From: Candidatus Poseidoniaceae archaeon
GTDB lineage: Archaea > Thermoplasmatota > Poseidoniia > Poseidoniales > Poseidoniaceae
Assembly: GCA_028353405.1 (NCBI GenBank)
Contig: JAOMOG010000001.1
Location: 24,717-88,716 of the forward strand
Reading direction: 5' to 3'
DNA: 64,000 nucleotides
This document shows, one piece after another, positions 4,083 to 10,838 of the stretch. The position numbers and the translations under genes were made by a program. The first letter of the stretch is position 1; each line of letters begins with the position of its first letter. Below the pieces are notes generated by a model. It made no database searches. It worked only from the letters and a program-made list of their open reading frames with translations, and was not told the origin of the DNA.

Positions 4083-4319
4083 TCAAACCCACTTGCCTTG
4101 AATTGCAAGCATTCCAGTGATCAGAGCATGAACATCAATTTCTTCACCACTTTCACTAGCAAATCTGAGTCTGTTTTTGATTGCATCAATCAATTGTTCA
4201 TCAACTTCTTCATCACTAATGAAGCGAATGAATTCTTCAATGGTTTTGCCTCTGCCTAATGCAATTGCTAAACGTGCTTTTTGCTCTTCGTCCTCGTCTT
4301 TAGGGTTTCTAACACTCAT
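4083..4319 (-). CDS. 78-aa acidic protein, third gene of the E1-like/JAMM cassette; function unknown
   Basis: Its ATG overlaps the upstream stop as ATGA (4316-4319). The sequence is acidic and reads as helix-prone. The C-terminus is 'AIQGKWV', with no GG end. Confidence 0.55.
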   Translation of the reverse strand: MSVRNPKDEDEEQKARLAIALGRGKTIEEFIRFISDEEVDEQLIDAIKNRLRFASESGEEIDVHALITGMLAIQGKWV

Positions 4320-4867
4320 ACAATCACTTCACTGTTCTCTATTATTTGTTGATACCATTCATCCCATGGAGTGACTGGTTCATCACTCCAACTTGACAAA
4401 GGTCCACTTGCATTAATTGTATTAGGGGCGTCGTAATCTTCATTGAAAGCGAGGTTGATTGCGACCTTTGGACCTGGTGCGCCAAGTACGATTGCTTGAC
4501 GAAGGATTCCACTTCCAATCGCTAAACTATTGGTGTCGGTAGCACTCCAGTAAGCAGCAAATCCTGGATGAGTATGAACCCATGTTTTGAAGGGCATTCT
4601 AGCACCAACTGGAGGTTTCAGTGGTACTCTGCCAGAAGTTCCCCAGTCAATGAATACCTCATCATCTGCATCGATAAGAACTGATGTCTCAAGACCTGCT
4701 AACAATGATATTGCATAAACCGCATCCCATCTTCCAGCCAAAGCACTATTGCTTTGGAAATCGAGCAAAAGGGGCGAATTAACTTGCTTATTTTCAGCAA
4801 GATCACAGATCTGTTCCCATGTTTCCCTATCTTCACACAATTGTTCAATTTCTGGAATATAAATCAT
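4316..4867 (-). CDS. JAB/MPN (JAMM) metalloprotease-like protein
   Basis: Exact JAMM motif H-x-H-x7-S-x2-D in 'WVHTHPGFAAYWSATD'. ATGA overlaps occur at both ends. GGAGGTG lies 5 nt upstream of its ATG, inside the upstream gene. Confidence 0.8.
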   Translation of the reverse strand: MIYIPEIEQLCEDRETWEQICDLAENKQVNSPLLLDFQSNSALAGRWDAVYAISLLAGLETSVLIDADDEVFIDWGTSGRVPLKPPVGARMPFKTWVHTHPGFAAYWSATDTNSLAIGSGILRQAIVLGAPGPKVAINLAFNEDYDAPNTINASGPLSSWSDEPVTPWDEWYQQIIENSEVIV

Positions 4868-5502
4868 TCATTCACCTCCGGAAAATGCATTTGACCATAG
4901 GTTATACTGGCCATACTCTGTACTGGTGTAGGTTTGCCACGTAATTGCTGTAGAGCCCACTGTGCACCGAAAGCAGCAGCGTTGAGGAAGCCGAATTCCA
5001 GATTCCCTGATTCAAGAGCGCCTTCATGTTGGCATGATTTGGCAGGATGATCTGGAGTCATAGCTTCAACCAATGCATTTTGACTATCGCTTGTCATTAC
5101 TAGGTGACCATCGCCGCCACAGCGTAAATCAGCCCAAGGAACTTGCAACTGGTGAATCAAGCGCCTTGGTTCAGGTCTATCGACGCAAACTATGACCAAA
5201 TCAGCACCCTTTAGTTGCTCTGAGTAACGTAAGTCCTCTGCGATTGCTCTAACGGTTACACTTGATTCGCCGTTAGTAATGTGGCGTTGAGCTAAAGCGT
5301 CAACCTTTGCTTCACCAATGTCGTTGCTGCTAAATCTTTGATGTCCTAAATTGGTTGCTTCAACCAAGTCTCCATCCATGATTATTATTTGACAATTAAT
5401 TCCTATTCTTCTCAGTGCAGGGGTTAAGACATCAACAAGTGTAGAACCTATTCCTCCAGCACCGATAATCAGTAGTGTTTTGCTATCCGCAATTTCCTTC
5501 AT
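4864..5502 (-). CDS. Minimal E1-like (ThiF/MoeB/UbaA superfamily) adenylyltransferase
   Basis: Rossmann 'LLIIGAGGIGS', 'MDGDLVEATNLGHQRF', 'GEAKVDAL' and 'VIVCVDRPEPRR' match the E1/ThiF adenylation-domain signature. The protein is only 212 aa, with no CxxC pairs and no rhodanese. Confidence 0.75.
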   Translation of the reverse strand: MKEIADSKTLLIIGAGGIGSTLVDVLTPALRRIGINCQIIIMDGDLVEATNLGHQRFSSNDIGEAKVDALAQRHITNGESSVTVRAIAEDLRYSEQLKGADLVIVCVDRPEPRRLIHQLQVPWADLRCGGDGHLVMTSDSQNALVEAMTPDHPAKSCQHEGALESGNLEFGFLNAAAFGAQWALQQLRGKPTPVQSMASITYGQMHFPEVNE

Positions 5503-5558
5503 ACAATATTAATCGATTGAGGACATATAAAGAATTGAACATGATAGCAATGTCTCGG

Positions 5559-7032: not shown

Positions 7033-8097
7033 ATGACCGGCAAGGTAGCGATGATTACTGGTGTAACTGGGCAAGATGGTTCTTACCTAGCGGAATTGCT
7101 ATTGGAAAAGGGATACAATGTCTATGGATTCGTCCGCAGAGTTTCCCAACCAACTGTAGGACGCAACCTCATCAACCATCTGATGAGCAATGAAAAGTTT
7201 CACTTAATCAATGGAGATTTGACTGATCAAAGTTCTATTGACAATGCGGTAACTGCTTGTCAACCAGACGAGTTCTACAATCTTGGTGCTATGTCATTCG
7301 TTCCTGAATCATGGCGCTCACCGATGATGACCGCTGATATTACTGGTCTTGGTGCTCTACGATGTTTGGAAGCGATTCGTAAGAACGCACCAGATTGCCG
7401 ATATTACCAAGCTGGTTCAAGTGAACAATTTGGTAAAGTGCACGAAGTCCCTCAAACTGAAGAAACCCCATTCCACCCACGTTCACCATATGGTTGTGCT
7501 AAGGTATTTGCCTTTGAAATCACTCGTAACTACCGTGAATCATACGATATGTTTGCTTGTACTGGAATTCTCTTCAACCACGAAAGCCCACGTCGTGGAC
7601 TAGAATTCGTAACCCGTAAGGTGACAATGACCGCAGCACGTATCGCCCATGGATTTGATGAAAATCTATGGATTGGTAATGTTGAAGCAAAGCGCGATTG
7701 GGGATTTGCTGGAGATTATGTTGAGATGCAATGGAGAATGTTACAACAAGATGTACCATTTGATTACGTTGTTGCAACCGGAAGAACTCACAGTGTCAAA
7801 GATATGATCAACCTTGCATTCTCTCACGTTGGAATGATTTTGACTTGGTCAGGAGAAGGCGTTGATGTCATCGCTACAGACCAAAACGATGTAGTCCGTG
7901 TTAGAACTAATCCGAAATTCTTCCGCCCTGCTGAAGTTGATTTACTGATTGGCGACCCAGCTCTCTCTCGCAAGGAATTAGGTTGGGTTCCTAAGACCTC
8001 ATTTGAGGAATTGGTCGCTATGATGGTCGATTCTGATATGGCAATTGTAGAAGAAGCGGTCAAGGGCGGTTATGCACCACCGATTCCACCTGAGTGA
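7033..8097 (+). CDS. gmd: GDP-mannose 4,6-dehydratase
   Basis: N-terminus 'VAMITGVTGQDGSYLAELLLEKGYNVYG', plus 'YYQAGSSEQFG', 'SPYGCAKV' and 'GILFNHESPRRG'. These are classic Gmd/SDR motifs. Confidence 0.93.
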   Translation: MTGKVAMITGVTGQDGSYLAELLLEKGYNVYGFVRRVSQPTVGRNLINHLMSNEKFHLINGDLTDQSSIDNAVTACQPDEFYNLGAMSFVPESWRSPMMTADITGLGALRCLEAIRKNAPDCRYYQAGSSEQFGKVHEVPQTEETPFHPRSPYGCAKVFAFEITRNYRESYDMFACTGILFNHESPRRGLEFVTRKVTMTAARIAHGFDENLWIGNVEAKRDWGFAGDYVEMQWRMLQQDVPFDYVVATGRTHSVKDMINLAFSHVGMILTWSGEGVDVIATDQNDVVRVRTNPKFFRPAEVDLLIGDPALSRKELGWVPKTSFEELVAMMVDSDMAIVEEAVKGGYAPPIPPE

Positions 8098-8116
8098 AAT
8101 TACGGAGTGAGTTATA

Positions 8117-8731
8117 GTGGCAACAGAACAGTTGCCAATTTTGTATTCTTTTAGGCGCTGTCCTTATGCGATGAGAGCTCGTATGGCAATCGTTAGACAA
8201 GGCTTCAAAGTTGAGCATAGAGAAGTAATTCTACGTGATAGACCATCGCATATGATGCAGATTTCTCCCAAAGGTACAGTGCCTATCTTGTTATTACCTA
8301 ATGGAACAGTCATCGAGGAAAGCCTTGAGATTATGCAACATGTTCGCGATTGGCAACCAAGTGAAGAGGAATTGAGTTGGATTGAAAGAAATGATCTTGA
8401 ATTTAAACATCACTTGGACCGTTACAAATATCCCAATCGTTATGAGGATATTGATGTGATAGAGCAAAGAAATGCAGCAGTAAACTACCTTGACGATTTA
8501 GATACAAATCTCCAGTTGCTTGAACAAAATACAAATCTGAACGATTCATTATTCCCATTTGTGCGCCAATTTGCTAACCATGATAGAGAATGGTTTGATG
8601 CTCAACCCTGGACAAACCTTCACAATTGGCTATCCAAGAATCTTGCTAGTGCCGAATTCAAAACTTGTATGAATAAAAATAAGCAATGGCAACAAGGAGA
8701 TGATGTCATTCATTTCCCGCACTCGTTGTAA
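8117..8731 (+). CDS. Glutathione S-transferase-like (thioredoxin-fold N-domain) protein
   Basis: 'LYSFRRCPYAMRARMAI...KGTVPILLLPNGTVIEESLEIM' is a GST N-terminal pattern. GTG start is preceded by GGAGTGA. Confidence 0.6.
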   Translation: MATEQLPILYSFRRCPYAMRARMAIVRQGFKVEHREVILRDRPSHMMQISPKGTVPILLLPNGTVIEESLEIMQHVRDWQPSEEELSWIERNDLEFKHHLDRYKYPNRYEDIDVIEQRNAAVNYLDDLDTNLQLLEQNTNLNDSLFPFVRQFANHDREWFDAQPWTNLHNWLSKNLASAEFKTCMNKNKQWQQGDDVIHFPHSL

Positions 8732-8819: not shown

Positions 8820-10838
8820 GTGGACAGATATTTATCCGTAATTATTGTGTCCATTATTTTGGTCTTATTTCCTTCTTTTGCCCAATTTACTAATGCAACT
8901 GAATCAGTAAATGAATCATCAACAACGAATGATAGTATTTTGTTAACAGACCAGTTCAATTATTCAATAGATTGGGATGAAGGAATGTTATACGGATGGG
9001 TTGGGGAATCTTATGCAGGATGTATCGGGCAATCACAAATTTATTGTTTGAAAATCACCGATAATACAGGTGAATTATATAGAATTGATTTTGAAGTAAT
9101 CAAAATCAATGAAGGCAAAAATCAAATCATTTCAAATGTTTCAGTACATTATGCTGGTACTAATCAAAGATATGAGTTACTGAGTAGTAATATTGGATTT
9201 AATATTATCACCACAGAAGTAAACGAATTTGTAAATTTAATAATTCCTCATACATTTGGATTTAGTGACGGCATTTATTATAACGGGGAAGAGATACAAG
9301 GTACTTCACAAGATTTAATTGCAGATAATACAAATGGTATGTTCAGGGTCATGTTCGATAGTTTTGGAGAACAAATGCAAATCCAACAAATATCAAGTGT
9401 TTCAATGATTAGATTAGCAGATATGTATAACGTTTCAACTCCTGCACAAATCTCAGCTAGATATTCAGTTCTCAATGATATTTCATTTTTAGAAAATAAA
9501 ATTTATATTCACTCTTGTAGTGCGAATAATTGCCAATATAATGCTTCCATTTCATCAATTTTGGAGAAAGGTAATAACCTCTCATTTCTTTCATTGAATA
9601 GTGACTTTAGCACTTCTTTAATTTTTTCTATTCAATCATCAGGGTATTATATAACCAAAATAGTTCCAACGGAATTATATTCAAATGAAGATGACTCAAT
9701 CGTTTTTACTTTTGGTTCAGGGACATACTTCCAGTTTGAAGCTGTAAATAATTATAGTCATTCCTTTTCCAATCTAAATTTTAGTGGTTCACCTGTCCAT
9801 TGTTCACAATTTTGTATAATGAAAGTATCGAGTTCTCTTGATGTGGACTGGGCATTTTCAATGACATCCGAGAGAATATATCATTCCACTTCAAAATCGA
9901 TTTTGGCACAAAATCCCAAAGGAGATTATTTGGTATATTTGAATAGAGGAATAAACGGTTATGGGATTCATGATTTAAAGCAAAACCAAACAACTTATTT
10001 CGATCCACAATCTAGTCTCAATAACCATTGCAGCTCAGCATTTCTATTGATTAAGAATGATGGTTCATTCGGAAATGCTTTTTGTTATGAAGAGGGAAGT
10101 GGGAACAACCAGAATATGGATGCGTTCGATATAATTTGGAAAGGAGATTTATTATCAATTGGAGTTCATTCTTCAGCCCCTGAAGTTCAAGCTTCCACTC
10201 CTGAACATACTTTTGACACAAGTTGCCACGTCGCATTATATGATACTTCAAACTATAACAATGTCACACTTTTGAATGAATCTGGTTGCCTTGGCCATTA
10301 TGTTCCTGGTAAAAAATCTGTAATTGGTCCTCAAAATGAAACTTATGAGTTCTCAATTTATACCAATTTAACCTATAATGATAATGAAGAATTGGTCTTC
10401 TATTATGTTTTAGAAAAAGATAAACCTGCGGTCAATTTTTCACAATGGCTCAATTATCAGCCTCCTGTTGATGAAAATGAAGACCAGACAAATAACTCAG
10501 GCGAAAATAATTCTAACTCCAACAATACAAATTCAAATAATTCTGGTTCAGAAGGAAATAATTCAAACAATTCGAATAATTCAAATAATGAAAGCGGTCA
10601 AAATGAACTAGAAAATAATACAAATCAACAAGATTTGGATAACAATTCCAGTAATTCTTCACAAGATAACGAAGGTCTCAACAACTCATCCAACAACAAC
10701 GAAAAGCCAAGCGAGGGTGCTGAAGGAGATGAAATCCTATTTTCAAGCCAATTGAAAATATACTTAACGGCCGGTCTTTTGATGTTTTTAGTCTATTTGT
10801 TAACAACAACAATTTATTCAAATAAATTTGATAAATGA
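8820..10838 (+). CDS. Secreted, C-terminally membrane-anchored surface (glyco)protein with an Asn/Ser-rich stalk
   Basis: N-terminal signal 'VIIVSIILVLFPSFAQF', many N-x-S/T sequons, an N/S low-complexity linker and a C-terminal TM 'IYLTAGLLMFLVYLLTTTIY'. Confidence 0.7.
   Translation: MDRYLSVIIVSIILVLFPSFAQFTNATESVNESSTTNDSILLTDQFNYSIDWDEGMLYGWVGESYAGCIGQSQIYCLKITDNTGELYRIDFEVIKINEGKNQIISNVSVHYAGTNQRYELLSSNIGFNIITTEVNEFVNLIIPHTFGFSDGIYYNGEEIQGTSQDLIADNTNGMFRVMFDSFGEQMQIQQISSVSMIRLADMYNVSTPAQISARYSVLNDISFLENKIYIHSCSANNCQYNASISSILEKGNNLSFLSLNSDFSTSLIFSIQSSGYYITKIVPTELYSNEDDSIVFTFGSGTYFQFEAVNNYSHSFSNLNFSGSPVHCSQFCIMKVSSSLDVDWAFSMTSERIYHSTSKSILAQNPKGDYLVYLNRGINGYGIHDLKQNQTTYFDPQSSLNNHCSSAFLLIKNDGSFGNAFCYEEGSGNNQNMDAFDIIWKGDLLSIGVHSSAPEVQASTPEHTFDTSCHVALYDTSNYNNVTLLNESGCLGHYVPGKKSVIGPQNETYEFSIYTNLTYNDNEELVFYYVLEKDKPAVNFSQWLNYQPPVDENEDQTNNSGENNSNSNNTNSNNSGSEGNNSNNSNNSNNESGQNELENNTNQQDLDNNSSNSSQDNEGLNNSSNNNEKPSEGAEGDEILFSSQLKIYLTAGLLMFLVYLLTTTIYSNKFDK
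10485..10705 (+). repeat. Coding low-complexity Asn/Ser-rich tract (stalk/linker)
   Basis: Encodes 'NNSGENNSNSNNTNSNNSGSEGNNSNNSNNSNNESGQNELENNTNQQDLDNNSSNSSQDNEGLNNSSNNNE'. Confidence 0.85.

What the first reader, a model, noticed from the sequence alone, without database searches (positions are those of the whole stretch)
4083..5502. Self-contained minimal E1-like + JAMM + 78-aa protein cassette with no E2, cyclase or GG-ended Ubl
Three minus-strand ORFs are fused into one translational unit by ATGA stop/start overlaps at 4864-4867 and 4316-4319. GGAGGTG lies 5 nt before the JAMM start. The cassette has its own TATA-like element (reverse complement of 5524-5532 reads CTTTATATG) centred about 26 nt upstream of the first ATG at 5502. 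That suggests an independent, probably leaderless transcript, separate from the upstream glycosyltransferase. ORF1 (212 aa) carries the E1/ThiF/MoeB adenylation signature (GAGGIGS; DGDLVEATNLGHQRF; GEAKVDAL; VCVDRPEPRR). It is stripped down, with no CxxC zinc pairs, no rhodanese and no evident catalytic-Cys insertion. ORF2 (183 aa) has a perfect JAMM motif (HTHPGFAAYWSATD). ORF3 is acidic and does not read as a beta-grasp protein. E1+JAB pairing is the hallmark of Ubl conjugation/deconjugation or sulfur-carrier modules (archaeal UbaA/SAMP/JAMM1, CBASS Cap2/Cap3, Bil/Bub, PRTRC, CysO-Mec+, QbsCDE). This three-gene architecture matches none of the versions I know. It sits between sugar-modification and beta-oxidation genes rather than cofactor genes.
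Basis: partly seen in the sequence, partly recalled or inferred. Interest (0 to 1): 0.8.

Follow-up and report, generated by a model that had tools for sequence, protein, structure and literature searches.

The report
Ubiquitin-like activation module, modifier gene missing
Three tightly coupled genes in a marine Group II archaeon encode the activating enzyme, the trimming protease and a small helical helper of a previously undescribed ubiquitin-like tagging system; the tag protein itself is encoded next to these genes in relatives and in their viruses, but not here.

Summary
Three minus-strand ORFs (212, 183 and 78 aa) overlap by ATGA. They form a leaderless, SD-coupled operon under purifying selection, and the triad is present in almost every Poseidoniaceae locus examined. 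ORF1 is a ThiF/E1-like adenylating enzyme but not a UbaA, MoeB or ThiF ortholog. Its invariant Cys157 aligns with E. coli ThiF Cys184. ORF2 is a divergent JAMM protease with an intact catalytic set. ORF3 is a four-helix protein, not a beta-grasp.

The cassette is not self-contained. Relatives fuse E1 and JAMM into one protein, and those fusions are always preceded by a ~70-aa protein ending in GG plus 0-2 residues. In Thalassarchaeaceae (MGIIb) this GG protein shares an operon with E1, JAMM and a true ORF3 homolog. Magrovirus-like viral contigs carry GG protein, E1 and JAMM but no ORF3. So ORF3 is an accessory protein, not the modifier.

Neither the 64-kb window nor any MGIIa locus (+-6 kb) encodes the GG protein. 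It is most likely unlinked.

Verdict: a new, E2-less variant of prokaryotic Ubl systems, found in abundant ocean archaea and their viruses. Function is inferred, not shown.

The parts
5524..5532 (-). TATA-like promoter element (CTTTATATG) centred 26 nt upstream of the E1 start codon, implying a leaderless first cistron
   Evidence: Sequence read. CAATTCTTTATATG is conserved in close relatives while its flanks diverge. TATA-like motifs pile up at -30..-21 across 73 distinct upstream regions, and only 4/75 E1 starts have an SD-like motif.
4864..5502 (-). ORF1: 212-aa minimal ThiF/E1-like adenylating enzyme (GAGGIGS P-loop, NLGHQR, VDRPEPRR; invariant Cys157 in TPDH..xSCQ; no CxxC zinc motif, no rhodanese, no E2 domain)
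   Evidence: Pfam ThiF 1.6e-20. NCBIfam equivalogs all below cut-off. hhalign to E. coli ThiF gives 95.6% probability, with Cys157 aligned to ThiF Cys184. By profile, the best solved relative is MccB, over residues 3-109 only. Invariant residues.
4873..4879 (-). GGAGGTG Shine-Dalgarno-like element inside the 3' end of ORF1, 5 nt before the JAMM start
   Evidence: An SD-like 5-mer lies within -16..-3 of the JAMM start in 78/85 related loci.
4316..4867 (-). ORF2: 183-aa divergent JAMM/MPN+ metalloprotease (E60, H98-x-H100, S108, D111), with an N-terminal three-helix extension
   Evidence: The catalytic set is invariant in 36 family members. AF2 pLDDT 90.7, pTM 0.87. Foldseek top hits are all JAMM isopeptidases (Sst2/AMSH, CsRpn11, PfJAMM1, AF2198, BubCD), probability 0.95-0.99, TM 0.35-0.53. 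Pfam Prok-JAB scores only 14.5 bits, below its cut-off.
4083..4319 (-). ORF3: 78-aa acidic four-helix accessory protein (invariant R4, P6, D8, G22, A54; C-terminus fixed in register as ...W-[A/V/I])
   Evidence: AF2 gives four helices, pLDDT 72, with no fold or family match. 72 distinct homologs show a conserved C-terminal register. dN/dS 0.05-0.13. A true homolog coexists with the GG-Ubl in MGIIb operons.
4864..4867 (-). ATGA stop/start overlap coupling ORF1 to ORF2
   Evidence: A 4-nt overlap occurs in 71/85 loci, and a 1-nt overlap in 8 more.
4316..4319 (-). ATGA stop/start overlap coupling ORF2 to ORF3
   Evidence: A 4-nt overlap occurs in 74/80 loci.

Best explanation
The cassette is the chromosomal enzyme core of a ubiquitin-like (Ubl) protein system specific to Poseidoniales. 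It works without an E2.

Proposed mechanism (all steps inferred, none shown):
1. ORF1 adenylates the C-terminal Gly-Gly carboxylate of a ~70-aa Ubl. It probably then holds the Ubl covalently on Cys157, the equivalent of ThiF Cys184.
2. The JAMM protease (ORF2) removes the 1-2 residues that follow GG in the Ubl precursor, and it reverses conjugates.
3. ORF3 is a small helical subunit made in fixed ratio with the JAMM enzyme by translational coupling. It acts as a regulator, adaptor or docking partner, not as the modifier.

The three genes are transcribed from their own TATA box as a leaderless mRNA. In this MGIIa genome the Ubl gene is not in the cassette and is presumed to lie elsewhere on the chromosome. 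The downstream chemistry could be E1-driven conjugation to lysines, as in archaeal SAMPylation, or sulfur-carrier chemistry. I favour conjugation.
For: Domain identities:
- ThiF fold with a complete nucleotide-binding signature.
- Intact, invariant JAMM catalytic set and a JAMM fold.

Functional coupling of E1 and JAMM:
- Two relatives (P0284, P0298) fuse E1 and JAMM into one ~405-aa protein that keeps this clade's own motifs.
- The overlaps are conserved across 80+ loci.

Link to a GG-Ubl:
- Every fusion locus with upstream sequence has a GG+1-2 protein directly upstream.
- All 35 distinct Ubls in the first set and all 80 in the viral set end in GG plus 0-2 residues.
- In Thalassarchaeaceae chromosomes the Ubl heads the same operon as E1-JAMM-ORF3, and the ORF3 there is a true homolog (hhalign 98.8%).
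- 76 of 80 Ubl-bearing viral contigs also carry E1 and JAMM on the same strand.

Other support:
- Cys157 is invariant, is kept even in the viral ThiF, and aligns with ThiF Cys184.
- An archaeal JAMM enzyme is known to trim a Ub precursor exactly after Gly-Gly (CsRpn11, PMC6043591).
- Operon signals are conserved and all three genes are under purifying selection.
Against: - No Ubl-family member is detectable in the 64-kb window or within +-6 kb of the triad in any MGIIa locus, even at E<=10. I could not search whole MGIIa genomes.
- The beta-grasp fold of the Ubl family is not demonstrated. It gives no Pfam hit. hhalign to ThiS gives E=1.4e-3 at only 18% probability. PDB sequence hits are noise.
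- No biochemical data exist for any member.
- The JAMM fold matches have modest TM-scores (0.35-0.53), and Pfam Prok-JAB is below its cut-off.
- The role of ORF3 is unknown.
- Homology between ORF3 and the helical proteins beside the fusions is not shown (hhalign 0.8%).
Confidence: 0.6

Rival explanations
1. Sulfur-carrier module. The E1-like enzyme adenylates a ThiS/MoaD-like carrier and, through Cys157, forms an acyl-disulfide or thiocarboxylate that donates sulfur to a cofactor, a tRNA or a small molecule. The JAMM enzyme unmasks the GG terminus, as Mec+ and QbsD do.
For: - Cys157 aligns with ThiF Cys184.
- The best NCBIfam hits are ThiF models.
- The Ubl family aligns end to end with ThiS, with GG in register, though weakly. 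Isolated members hit thiS and SAMP1 models.
- There is no E2.
Against: - None of the four contexts examined (MGIIa, MGIIb, fusion-type, viral) shows a sulfurtransferase, rhodanese, cysteine synthase or cofactor or thiolation gene.
- In viruses the module sits in the replicative gene block.
- The conserved partners (ORF3, X, Y) match no metabolic family.
Confidence: 0.17
2. ORF3 itself is the modifier or substrate. The E1-like enzyme would adenylate the fixed ...W-A C-terminus of this helical protein, giving a non-beta-grasp modifier analogous to CD-NTase tails in CBASS or to Pup. The JAMM enzyme would process or release it.
For: - The ORF3 C-terminus is fixed in register and ends in a small aliphatic residue in 72/72 homologs, with Trp at -2 in 62/72.
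- ORF3 is tightly coupled in translation to the JAMM gene.
- No Ubl lies nearby in MGIIa.
- By profile, the closest solved relative of ORF1 is MccB, which adenylates a peptide C-terminus.
Against: - ORF3 coexists in one operon with a bona fide GG-ended protein in MGIIb.
- Viral versions keep Ubl, E1 and JAMM but have no ORF3.
- One MGIIa lineage (L003/L004) lacks ORF3 but keeps E1 and JAMM.
- ORF1 lacks the N-terminal peptide-clamp region of MccB; the alignment covers only the Rossmann half.
Confidence: 0.08
3. Virus-conflict module. The host triad has no Ubl of its own and acts on the GG-Ubl brought in by magroviruses, either activating, mis-conjugating or stripping it. Alternatively it is an antiviral system related to Bil or CBASS Cap2/Cap3.
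For: - Magrovirus-like contigs encode homologous Ubl, E1 and JAMM.
- MGIIa loci lack a nearby Ubl.
- The triad evolves faster than its housekeeping neighbours: about 55-60% identity against 75-88%.
- PADLOC Cap2 models hit ORF1.
Against: - The triad sits in conserved core synteny across ~199 GTDB loci, not in a variable island.
- There is no effector gene.
- The PADLOC hits cover only the generic Rossmann part, and JAMM and ORF3 hit nothing.
- Viral E1 and JAMM are the most distant group (about 26-31% identity), so there is no sign of recent exchange.
Confidence: 0.1
4. ORF1 is simply the genome's ordinary UbaA/MoeB/ThiF, serving SAMP/MoaD/ThiS partners encoded elsewhere. The JAMM gene is its HvJAMM1-like partner.
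For: - It belongs to the ThiF family.
- In archaea, SAMPs are commonly unlinked from UbaA (own knowledge; PMC2948915 appeared).
Against: - NCBIfam UbaA scores 33.8 bits against a cut-off of 450, MoeB 34.3 against 266, and ThiF 58.6 against 275.
- There is no CxxC zinc motif.
- The C-terminal half is clade-specific, with no PDB match.
- The JAMM clade has only 147 representatives among 1.84 billion proteins.
- The clade has its own dedicated Ubl family.
Confidence: 0.04

Closest known systems
Archaeal SAMP / UbaA / JAMM1 system (Haloferax, Pyrococcus)
   Same: Archaeal and E2-independent. An E1-like adenylating enzyme works with a JAMM/MPN+ protease and a small GG-ended modifier that may be encoded away from the enzymes. 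PfJAMM1 is among the structural matches of ORF2.
   Different: - ORF1 is not a UbaA ortholog (33.8 bits against a cut-off of 450).
- It is about 60 residues shorter and lacks the CxxC zinc site.
- The JAMM enzyme has an extra N-terminal helical region and falls below the Prok-JAB threshold.
- The Ubl family matches no SAMP, ThiS or MoaD model at significance.
- There is an extra helical subunit, ORF3, plus facultative X and Y proteins.
Caldiarchaeum subterraneum Ub operon (CsUb, E1, E2, RING E3, CsRpn11)
   Same: An archaeal operon in which a JAMM enzyme trims a Ub precursor exactly after Gly-Gly and also deconjugates it (PMC6043591). CsRpn11 is a top structural and sequence match of ORF2.
   Different: No E2 or RING E3 is detectable here. 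The E1 is a minimal single-domain ThiF-like protein. The Ubl is not recognisably ubiquitin-like by sequence.
Bacterial Bil (BilABCD) and Bub operons, and the type 6d/6e neighbourhoods of Iyer et al. 2006
   Same: Ubl, E1 and a JAB deubiquitinase lie in one operon. Iyer et al. also note a 'rapidly diverging alpha-helical protein' in the 6d operons (PMC1779556). BubCD is among the Foldseek hits.
   Different: Those systems have an E2-like protein with a catalytic Cys, which is a defining part. None is found here: the E2 test on the X domain was negative, and the window lacks X altogether. Those systems are bacterial, sit in defence islands, and belong to different E1 and JAB subfamilies.
CBASS Cap2/Cap3
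   Same: E1-type adenylation paired with a JAB protease. ORF1's best PADLOC hits are Cap2 models.
   Different: Cap2 is an E2-E1 fusion of about 600 aa that acts on the CD-NTase C-terminus. There is no E2 domain, CD-NTase or effector here. The hits cover only residues 6-119, and ORF2 hits no Cap3 model.
ThiF-ThiS, and JAB-processed sulfur carriers (CysO/Mec+, QbsCDE)
   Same: A minimal single-domain E1. Cys157 is equivalent to ThiF Cys184. A GG-ended carrier carries a C-terminal extension that a JAB enzyme removes.
   Different: No thiazole, cysteine or siderophore biosynthesis genes occur in any context. ThiF equivalog scores are far below cut-off. The zinc site is absent. The module is also present in virus replicative gene blocks.

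Membership tests
ThiF/MoeB/E1 superfamily (PF00899) | Rossmann-type nucleotide-binding fold with a GxGxxG loop and a score above the Pfam gathering threshold | tested here: met
   73.7 bits against a cut-off of 28.1. GAGGIG is invariant. hhalign to E. coli ThiF gives 95.6% probability.
UbaA / MoeB / ThiF orthologs (NCBIfam equivalogs) | Score at or above the curated equivalog cut-off | tested here: not met
   ThiF 58.6 against 275.25; UbaA 33.8 against 450; MoeB 34.3 against 266.
UbaA / MoeB / ThiF orthologs | Two CxxC pairs forming the structural zinc site | tested here: not met
   ORF1 and its family have no CxxC. The ThiF CYRC region aligns to LVEAMTPDH.
E1-type enzymes with a covalent intermediate | A conserved cysteine in the crossover region after the adenylation core | tested here: met
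   Cys157 is invariant in 19/19 sequences, is kept in fusion and viral forms, and aligns with ThiF Cys184. Whether it is catalytic was not tested.
JAMM/MPN+ metalloproteases | Catalytic motif E...HxH-x7-S-xx-D | tested here: met
   E60, H98, H100, S108 and D111 are invariant in 36 sequences.
JAMM/MPN+ metalloproteases | JAB/MPN fold | tested here: met
   AF2 pLDDT 90.7. The 21 best Foldseek PDB hits are JAMM/MPN proteins, most with probability 0.95-0.99. TM-scores are only 0.35-0.53 and E-values about 1e-2.
Pfam Prok-JAB (PF14464) | Score at or above the gathering threshold | tested here: not met
   14.5 bits against a cut-off of 25, and only residues 97-115 match.
Ubl conjugation or carrier systems in general | A small protein with a C-terminal Gly-Gly, free or masked, encoded with the enzymes | tested here: inconclusive
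   Not met in the window or in MGIIa loci. Met in fusion-type, MGIIb and viral relatives. Whole MGIIa genomes could not be searched.
Ubl conjugation or carrier systems in general | Beta-grasp fold of the modifier | tested here: inconclusive
   No Pfam hit. hhalign to ThiS gives E=1.4e-3 at 18% probability.
Bil / Bub / CBASS Cap2 type systems | An E2-like (UBC) domain with a catalytic Cys, separate or fused to the E1 | tested here: not met
   ORF1 is a single 212-aa domain. The window has no X-domain hit. The X domain of relatives shows no UBC similarity.
CBASS type II | An adjacent CD-NTase and effector | tested here: not met
   The neighbours are a GT4 glycosyltransferase, a FadB-like enzyme, GDP-mannose dehydratase and HxlR.
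PRTRC system | PRTRC_ThiF equivalog score and ParB-related/PRTRC A-E neighbours | tested here: not met
   58.1 bits against a cut-off of 144.75. No such neighbours.
MccB/PaaA-type peptide-modifying E1-like enzymes | An N-terminal peptide-clamp domain ahead of the adenylation domain | tested here: not met
   The ORF1 P-loop starts at residue 14. The MccB match covers ORF1 residues 3-109 against MccB residues 111-216 only.

The most novel reading that the evidence does not exclude
MGIIa cells truly lack their own Ubl for this module. In that case the conserved E1-JAMM-ORF3 triad would act in trans on the Gly-Gly protein encoded by infecting magroviruses, making this a host-virus contest fought over a ubiquitin-like tag. 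Alternatively, ORF3 would be a new alpha-helical modifier activated by an E1-like enzyme.
Probability: 0.12. Interest if true: 0.85.

Novelty: new variant of a known kind. Interest (0 to 1): 0.6.

Why it matters
[quoted passage not shown] None of the MGII or magrovirus papers I found and checked in the searched library mentions a ubiquitin-like system.

The evidence points to a compact Ubl system without a detectable E2. Its parts are a GG-ended protein, a minimal E1, a JAMM protease, a helical subunit, and optional X and Y proteins. It is conserved across both MGII families, and a version without the helical subunit is found in hundreds of magrovirus-like contigs.

This matters for three reasons:
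- It adds an archaeal and archaeal-virus branch to the growing set of prokaryotic ubiquitin-like pathways.
- It offers a very small E1 (212 aa, no zinc site) for mechanistic study.
- It raises a testable question about whether tagging plays a part in MGII-virus interactions.

For annotation, it gives names and roles to three 'hypothetical' or 'ThiF family' genes that recur in every Poseidoniaceae genome.

Tried and rejected
- The upstream glycosyltransferase as part of the unit. Rejected: it is absent in about 15 loci, and L001 has a transporter there instead.
- The extra genes after ORF3 in L001 and L070 as one shared fourth component. They are not homologous to each other. The L070-type gene later proved to carry the X domain.
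- Longer JAMM homologs (248-286 aa) as natural JAMM-ORF3 fusions. They are loop insertions, not fusions.
- A deep ORF3 alignment including locus-derived sequences for AF2.
- GG-ended small ORFs in the window and in all MGII flanks. Only antisense shadow ORFs turned up.
- The X domain as an E2/UBC domain. There is no support from a PDB profile search, hhalign against UBE2D2, or PADLOC.
- Homology between ORF3 and the helical proteins beside the fusions. Not demonstrated.
- The viral JAMM in GenBank phage records. No match.
- The C-terminal half of ORF1 alone against PDB. No meaningful hit.
- A viral scan with the full Ubl alignment failed for lack of a conserved stretch. It was repeated with viral Ubls only.
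So whole MGIIa genomes could not be searched for it.
Full report
**Observation.**

The ATGA overlaps lie at 4864-4867 and 4316-4319. GGAGGTG (4873-4879) lies 5 nt before the second ATG. CTTTATATG (reverse complement of 5524-5532) is centred 26 nt upstream of the first ATG.

By near-identity to L007 and L008 (96-99% at protein level), the window comes from a Poseidoniaceae (MGIIa) genome.

**What the three proteins are.**

*ORF1.*
- It passes the Pfam ThiF threshold (73.7 bits against 28.1).
- It fails every NCBIfam equivalog: ThiF 58.6 against 275, PRTRC_ThiF 58.1 against 145, UbaA 33.8 against 450, MoeB 34.3 against 266.
- PADLOC Cap2 models hit only its Rossmann part.
- In a family alignment the P-loop, NLGHQ and VDRPEPRR are invariant, and so is Cys157 in a clade-specific TPDH..xSCQ motif.
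- Profile-profile alignment to E. coli ThiF (95.6% probability) places Cys157 on ThiF Cys184. From my own knowledge, that is the residue that forms the ThiF-ThiS acyl-disulfide.
- The ThiF CxxC region has no counterpart.
- Its best solved relative by profile is MccB, over residues 3-109 only. The C-terminal half has no PDB match.

*ORF2.*
- It reaches only 14.5 bits on Prok-JAB.
- E60, H98, H100, S108 and D111 are invariant in 36 homologs.
- A confident AF2 model (pLDDT 90.7) retrieves only JAMM isopeptidases at the top: Sst2/AMSH, CsRpn11, PfJAMM1, AF2198 and BubCD. Probabilities are 0.95-0.99 and TM-scores 0.35-0.53.

*ORF3.*
- It is predicted as four helices (pLDDT 72).
- It has no family or fold match.

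**Is the triad a conserved unit?**

The JAMM family was found at 199 places in GTDB species-representative genomes. The 80 best are all titled as Poseidoniales-type MAGs.

Across 86 loci the order E1-JAMM-ORF3 holds everywhere except L003/L004, which lack ORF3. ORF3 in L085/L086 was missed by tblastn but is present.
- 4-nt overlaps occur at 71/85 E1/JAMM junctions and 74/80 JAMM/ORF3 junctions.
- ORF3 is held at 78-79 aa.
- The whole neighbourhood is syntenic, so adjacency alone is weak evidence.
- The upstream GT is missing in about 15 loci, and flanks differ in L001 and L092, while the triad persists.

dN/dS is 0.05-0.22 for all three genes.

TATA-like motifs concentrate at -30..-21 from the E1 start codon. 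SD-like motifs precede JAMM (78/85) and ORF3 (63/78) but not E1 (4/75).

**The decisive context.**

A filter-free profile search of 1.84 billion representatives found only 147 JAMM relatives. Two of them (P0284, P0298, about 405 aa) are E1-JAMM fusions that keep the clade's motifs.

In their loci the fusion is preceded by a small protein ending in ...SLQGGH or ...PLVGGSC. It is followed by an 85-86-aa helical protein.

A metagenome scan and two viral scans extended this:
- Every fusion locus with upstream sequence has the GG protein.
- All 35 distinct members in the first set and all 80 in the viral set end in an invariant GG plus 0-2 residues. They also share an N[ED]TGH motif.

In Thalassarchaeaceae (MGIIb) chromosomes (label), the operon reads Ubl-X-Y-E1-(small variable gene)-JAMM-ORF3-Z. 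The ORF3 there is a true homolog (98.8% probability). Hence ORF3 coexists with the Ubl and is not its substitute.

Syntenic MGIIb loci L105 and L107 lack Ubl-X-Y, so that part is facultative or mobile.

**Viruses.**

330 IMG/VR contigs, many about 90-100 kb, encode a JAMM relative, and 185 encode the Ubl.
- E1 accompanies JAMM in all 66 loci that have enough upstream sequence.
- Ubl, E1 and JAMM lie on one strand in 76 of 80 Ubl-bearing loci, with the Ubl 2.3-6.5 kb upstream of E1.
- None has ORF3.
- Neighbouring genes are a class II RNR, a Cpn60 chaperonin and an RFC-like clamp loader. This matches the replicative block described for magroviruses (PMC5434244).
- Viral E1 and JAMM are the most distant group, at about 26-31% identity to cellular forms, against 38-46% among cellular E1 groups.

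**What is missing here.**

Neither the window nor any MGIIa locus (+-6 kb) has a Ubl-family hit, even at E<=10. The window also has no second ThiF of this clade and no X domain.

The X C-terminal domain has invariant Gly, Cys-Ile, Asp and Asn-Asp positions. It recurs in four settings:
- after ORF3 in 12 MGIIa loci, including the closed genome CM001443.1;
- in MGIIb;
- beside the fusions;
- in 137 of 160 viral loci.

An E2 assignment for it found no support.

**Interpretation.**

Shown:
- the domain identities;
- operon structure and selective constraint;
- E1-JAMM fusion in relatives;
- systematic association of the clade with a GG-ended small protein;
- coexistence of ORF3 with that protein.

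Inferred:
- adenylation of the GG terminus by ORF1;
- a covalent intermediate on Cys157;
- trimming and deconjugation by ORF2, with precedent in CsRpn11 cleaving exactly after Gly-Gly (PMC6043591);
- an accessory role for ORF3;
- an unlinked Ubl gene in MGIIa.

Conjugation and sulfur transfer cannot be told apart from sequence. I favour conjugation because no sulfur-metabolism partners appear in any context and because the module occurs in viruses.

The beta-grasp fold of the Ubl is only weakly supported.

**Comparison and novelty.**

It works most like the E2-less archaeal SAMP/UbaA/JAMM1 system, and like JAB-processed carriers. It fails the membership tests for UbaA/MoeB/ThiF orthologs, PRTRC, Cap2/Cap3, Bil/Bub (no E2) and MccB (no peptide clamp).

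The MGII and magrovirus papers that the searches returned and I checked contain no mention of a Ubl, ThiF or JAB system.

I rate it a new variant of a known kind. Interest is moderate to high because of the organisms' abundance, the viral counterpart, and the unusual helical and X/Y partners. The rating is tempered by the lack of any functional data and by the unresolved location of the Ubl in MGIIa.

Noticed in passing
L175-L335 (IMG/VR contigs), e.g. L181:880-1086 (Ubl), 7288-7899 (E1), 7839-8633 (JAMM): Magrovirus-like viral contigs carry a GG-ended Ubl, a ~185-aa ThiF-like E1, a JAMM protein with a long N-terminal extension and usually an X-domain protein. These lie within the replicative gene block (RNR, Cpn60, RFC-like). 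The magrovirus papers I checked do not mention this.
   Followed up: partly
L070:6778-7743 (closed MG-II chromosome CM001443.1); also L014, L016, L017, L021, L030, L033, L035, L047, L073, L075, L077: A ~320-aa gene directly after ORF3 in a subset of MGIIa genomes carries the same C-terminal 'X domain' (invariant Cys-Ile, Asp, Asn-Asp) that lies between the Ubl and E1 in MGIIb and in viral contigs. It matches no known family. It is absent from this window's lineage.
   Followed up: partly
L336:5133-5534 (Thalassarchaeaceae MAG GCA_030749175.1): Here the Ubl gene continues for 56 residues past ...LVGG (133 aa in total), instead of the usual 0-2 residues. This is either a long precursor extension or an assembly frameshift.
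   Followed up: no
L003:6001-6591 and L004:5043-5633: One MGIIa lineage has E1 and a JAMM protein with a 13-residue longer C-terminus that overlaps the convergent FadB-like gene. It has no ORF3, so ORF3 is dispensable in at least one lineage.
   Followed up: partly
L336:8148-8354, L338:1542-1946, L340:1302-1505, L106:6657-6860: MGIIb operons carry a variable small gene (67-134 aa) inserted between E1 and JAMM. It matches no profile that I tested.
   Followed up: no
P0097, P0103, P0104, P0105 (JAMM homologs, 248-286 aa): Some JAMM family members carry 60-100-residue insertions in the variable loop after the conserved Asn138. The catalytic core is intact.
   Followed up: no
window 8820-10838 (+): A 672-aa ORF has an Asn/Ser-rich low-complexity C-terminal region and a hydrophobic tail. 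It lies in the window's lowest-GC stretch (0.343 against about 0.41 elsewhere). It may be a variable surface protein.
   Followed up: no
L033/L043 (both CASIAW01...) and L056/L067 (both JAYYDY01...): Two MAGs each contain two diverged copies of the whole triad locus on different contigs. This is more likely mixed strains in the bins than true paralogy.
   Followed up: no
L087:2998-3978, L096:3524-4513 and the convergent 563-713-aa genes: Fusion-type loci (GC 54-63%, contigs all under 17 kb) are flanked by a protein with a TFIIB-like zinc ribbon, and in L090/L104 by a C5 DNA methyltransferase. This hints at a mobile element or provirus in another marine Thermoplasmatota lineage.
   Followed up: no
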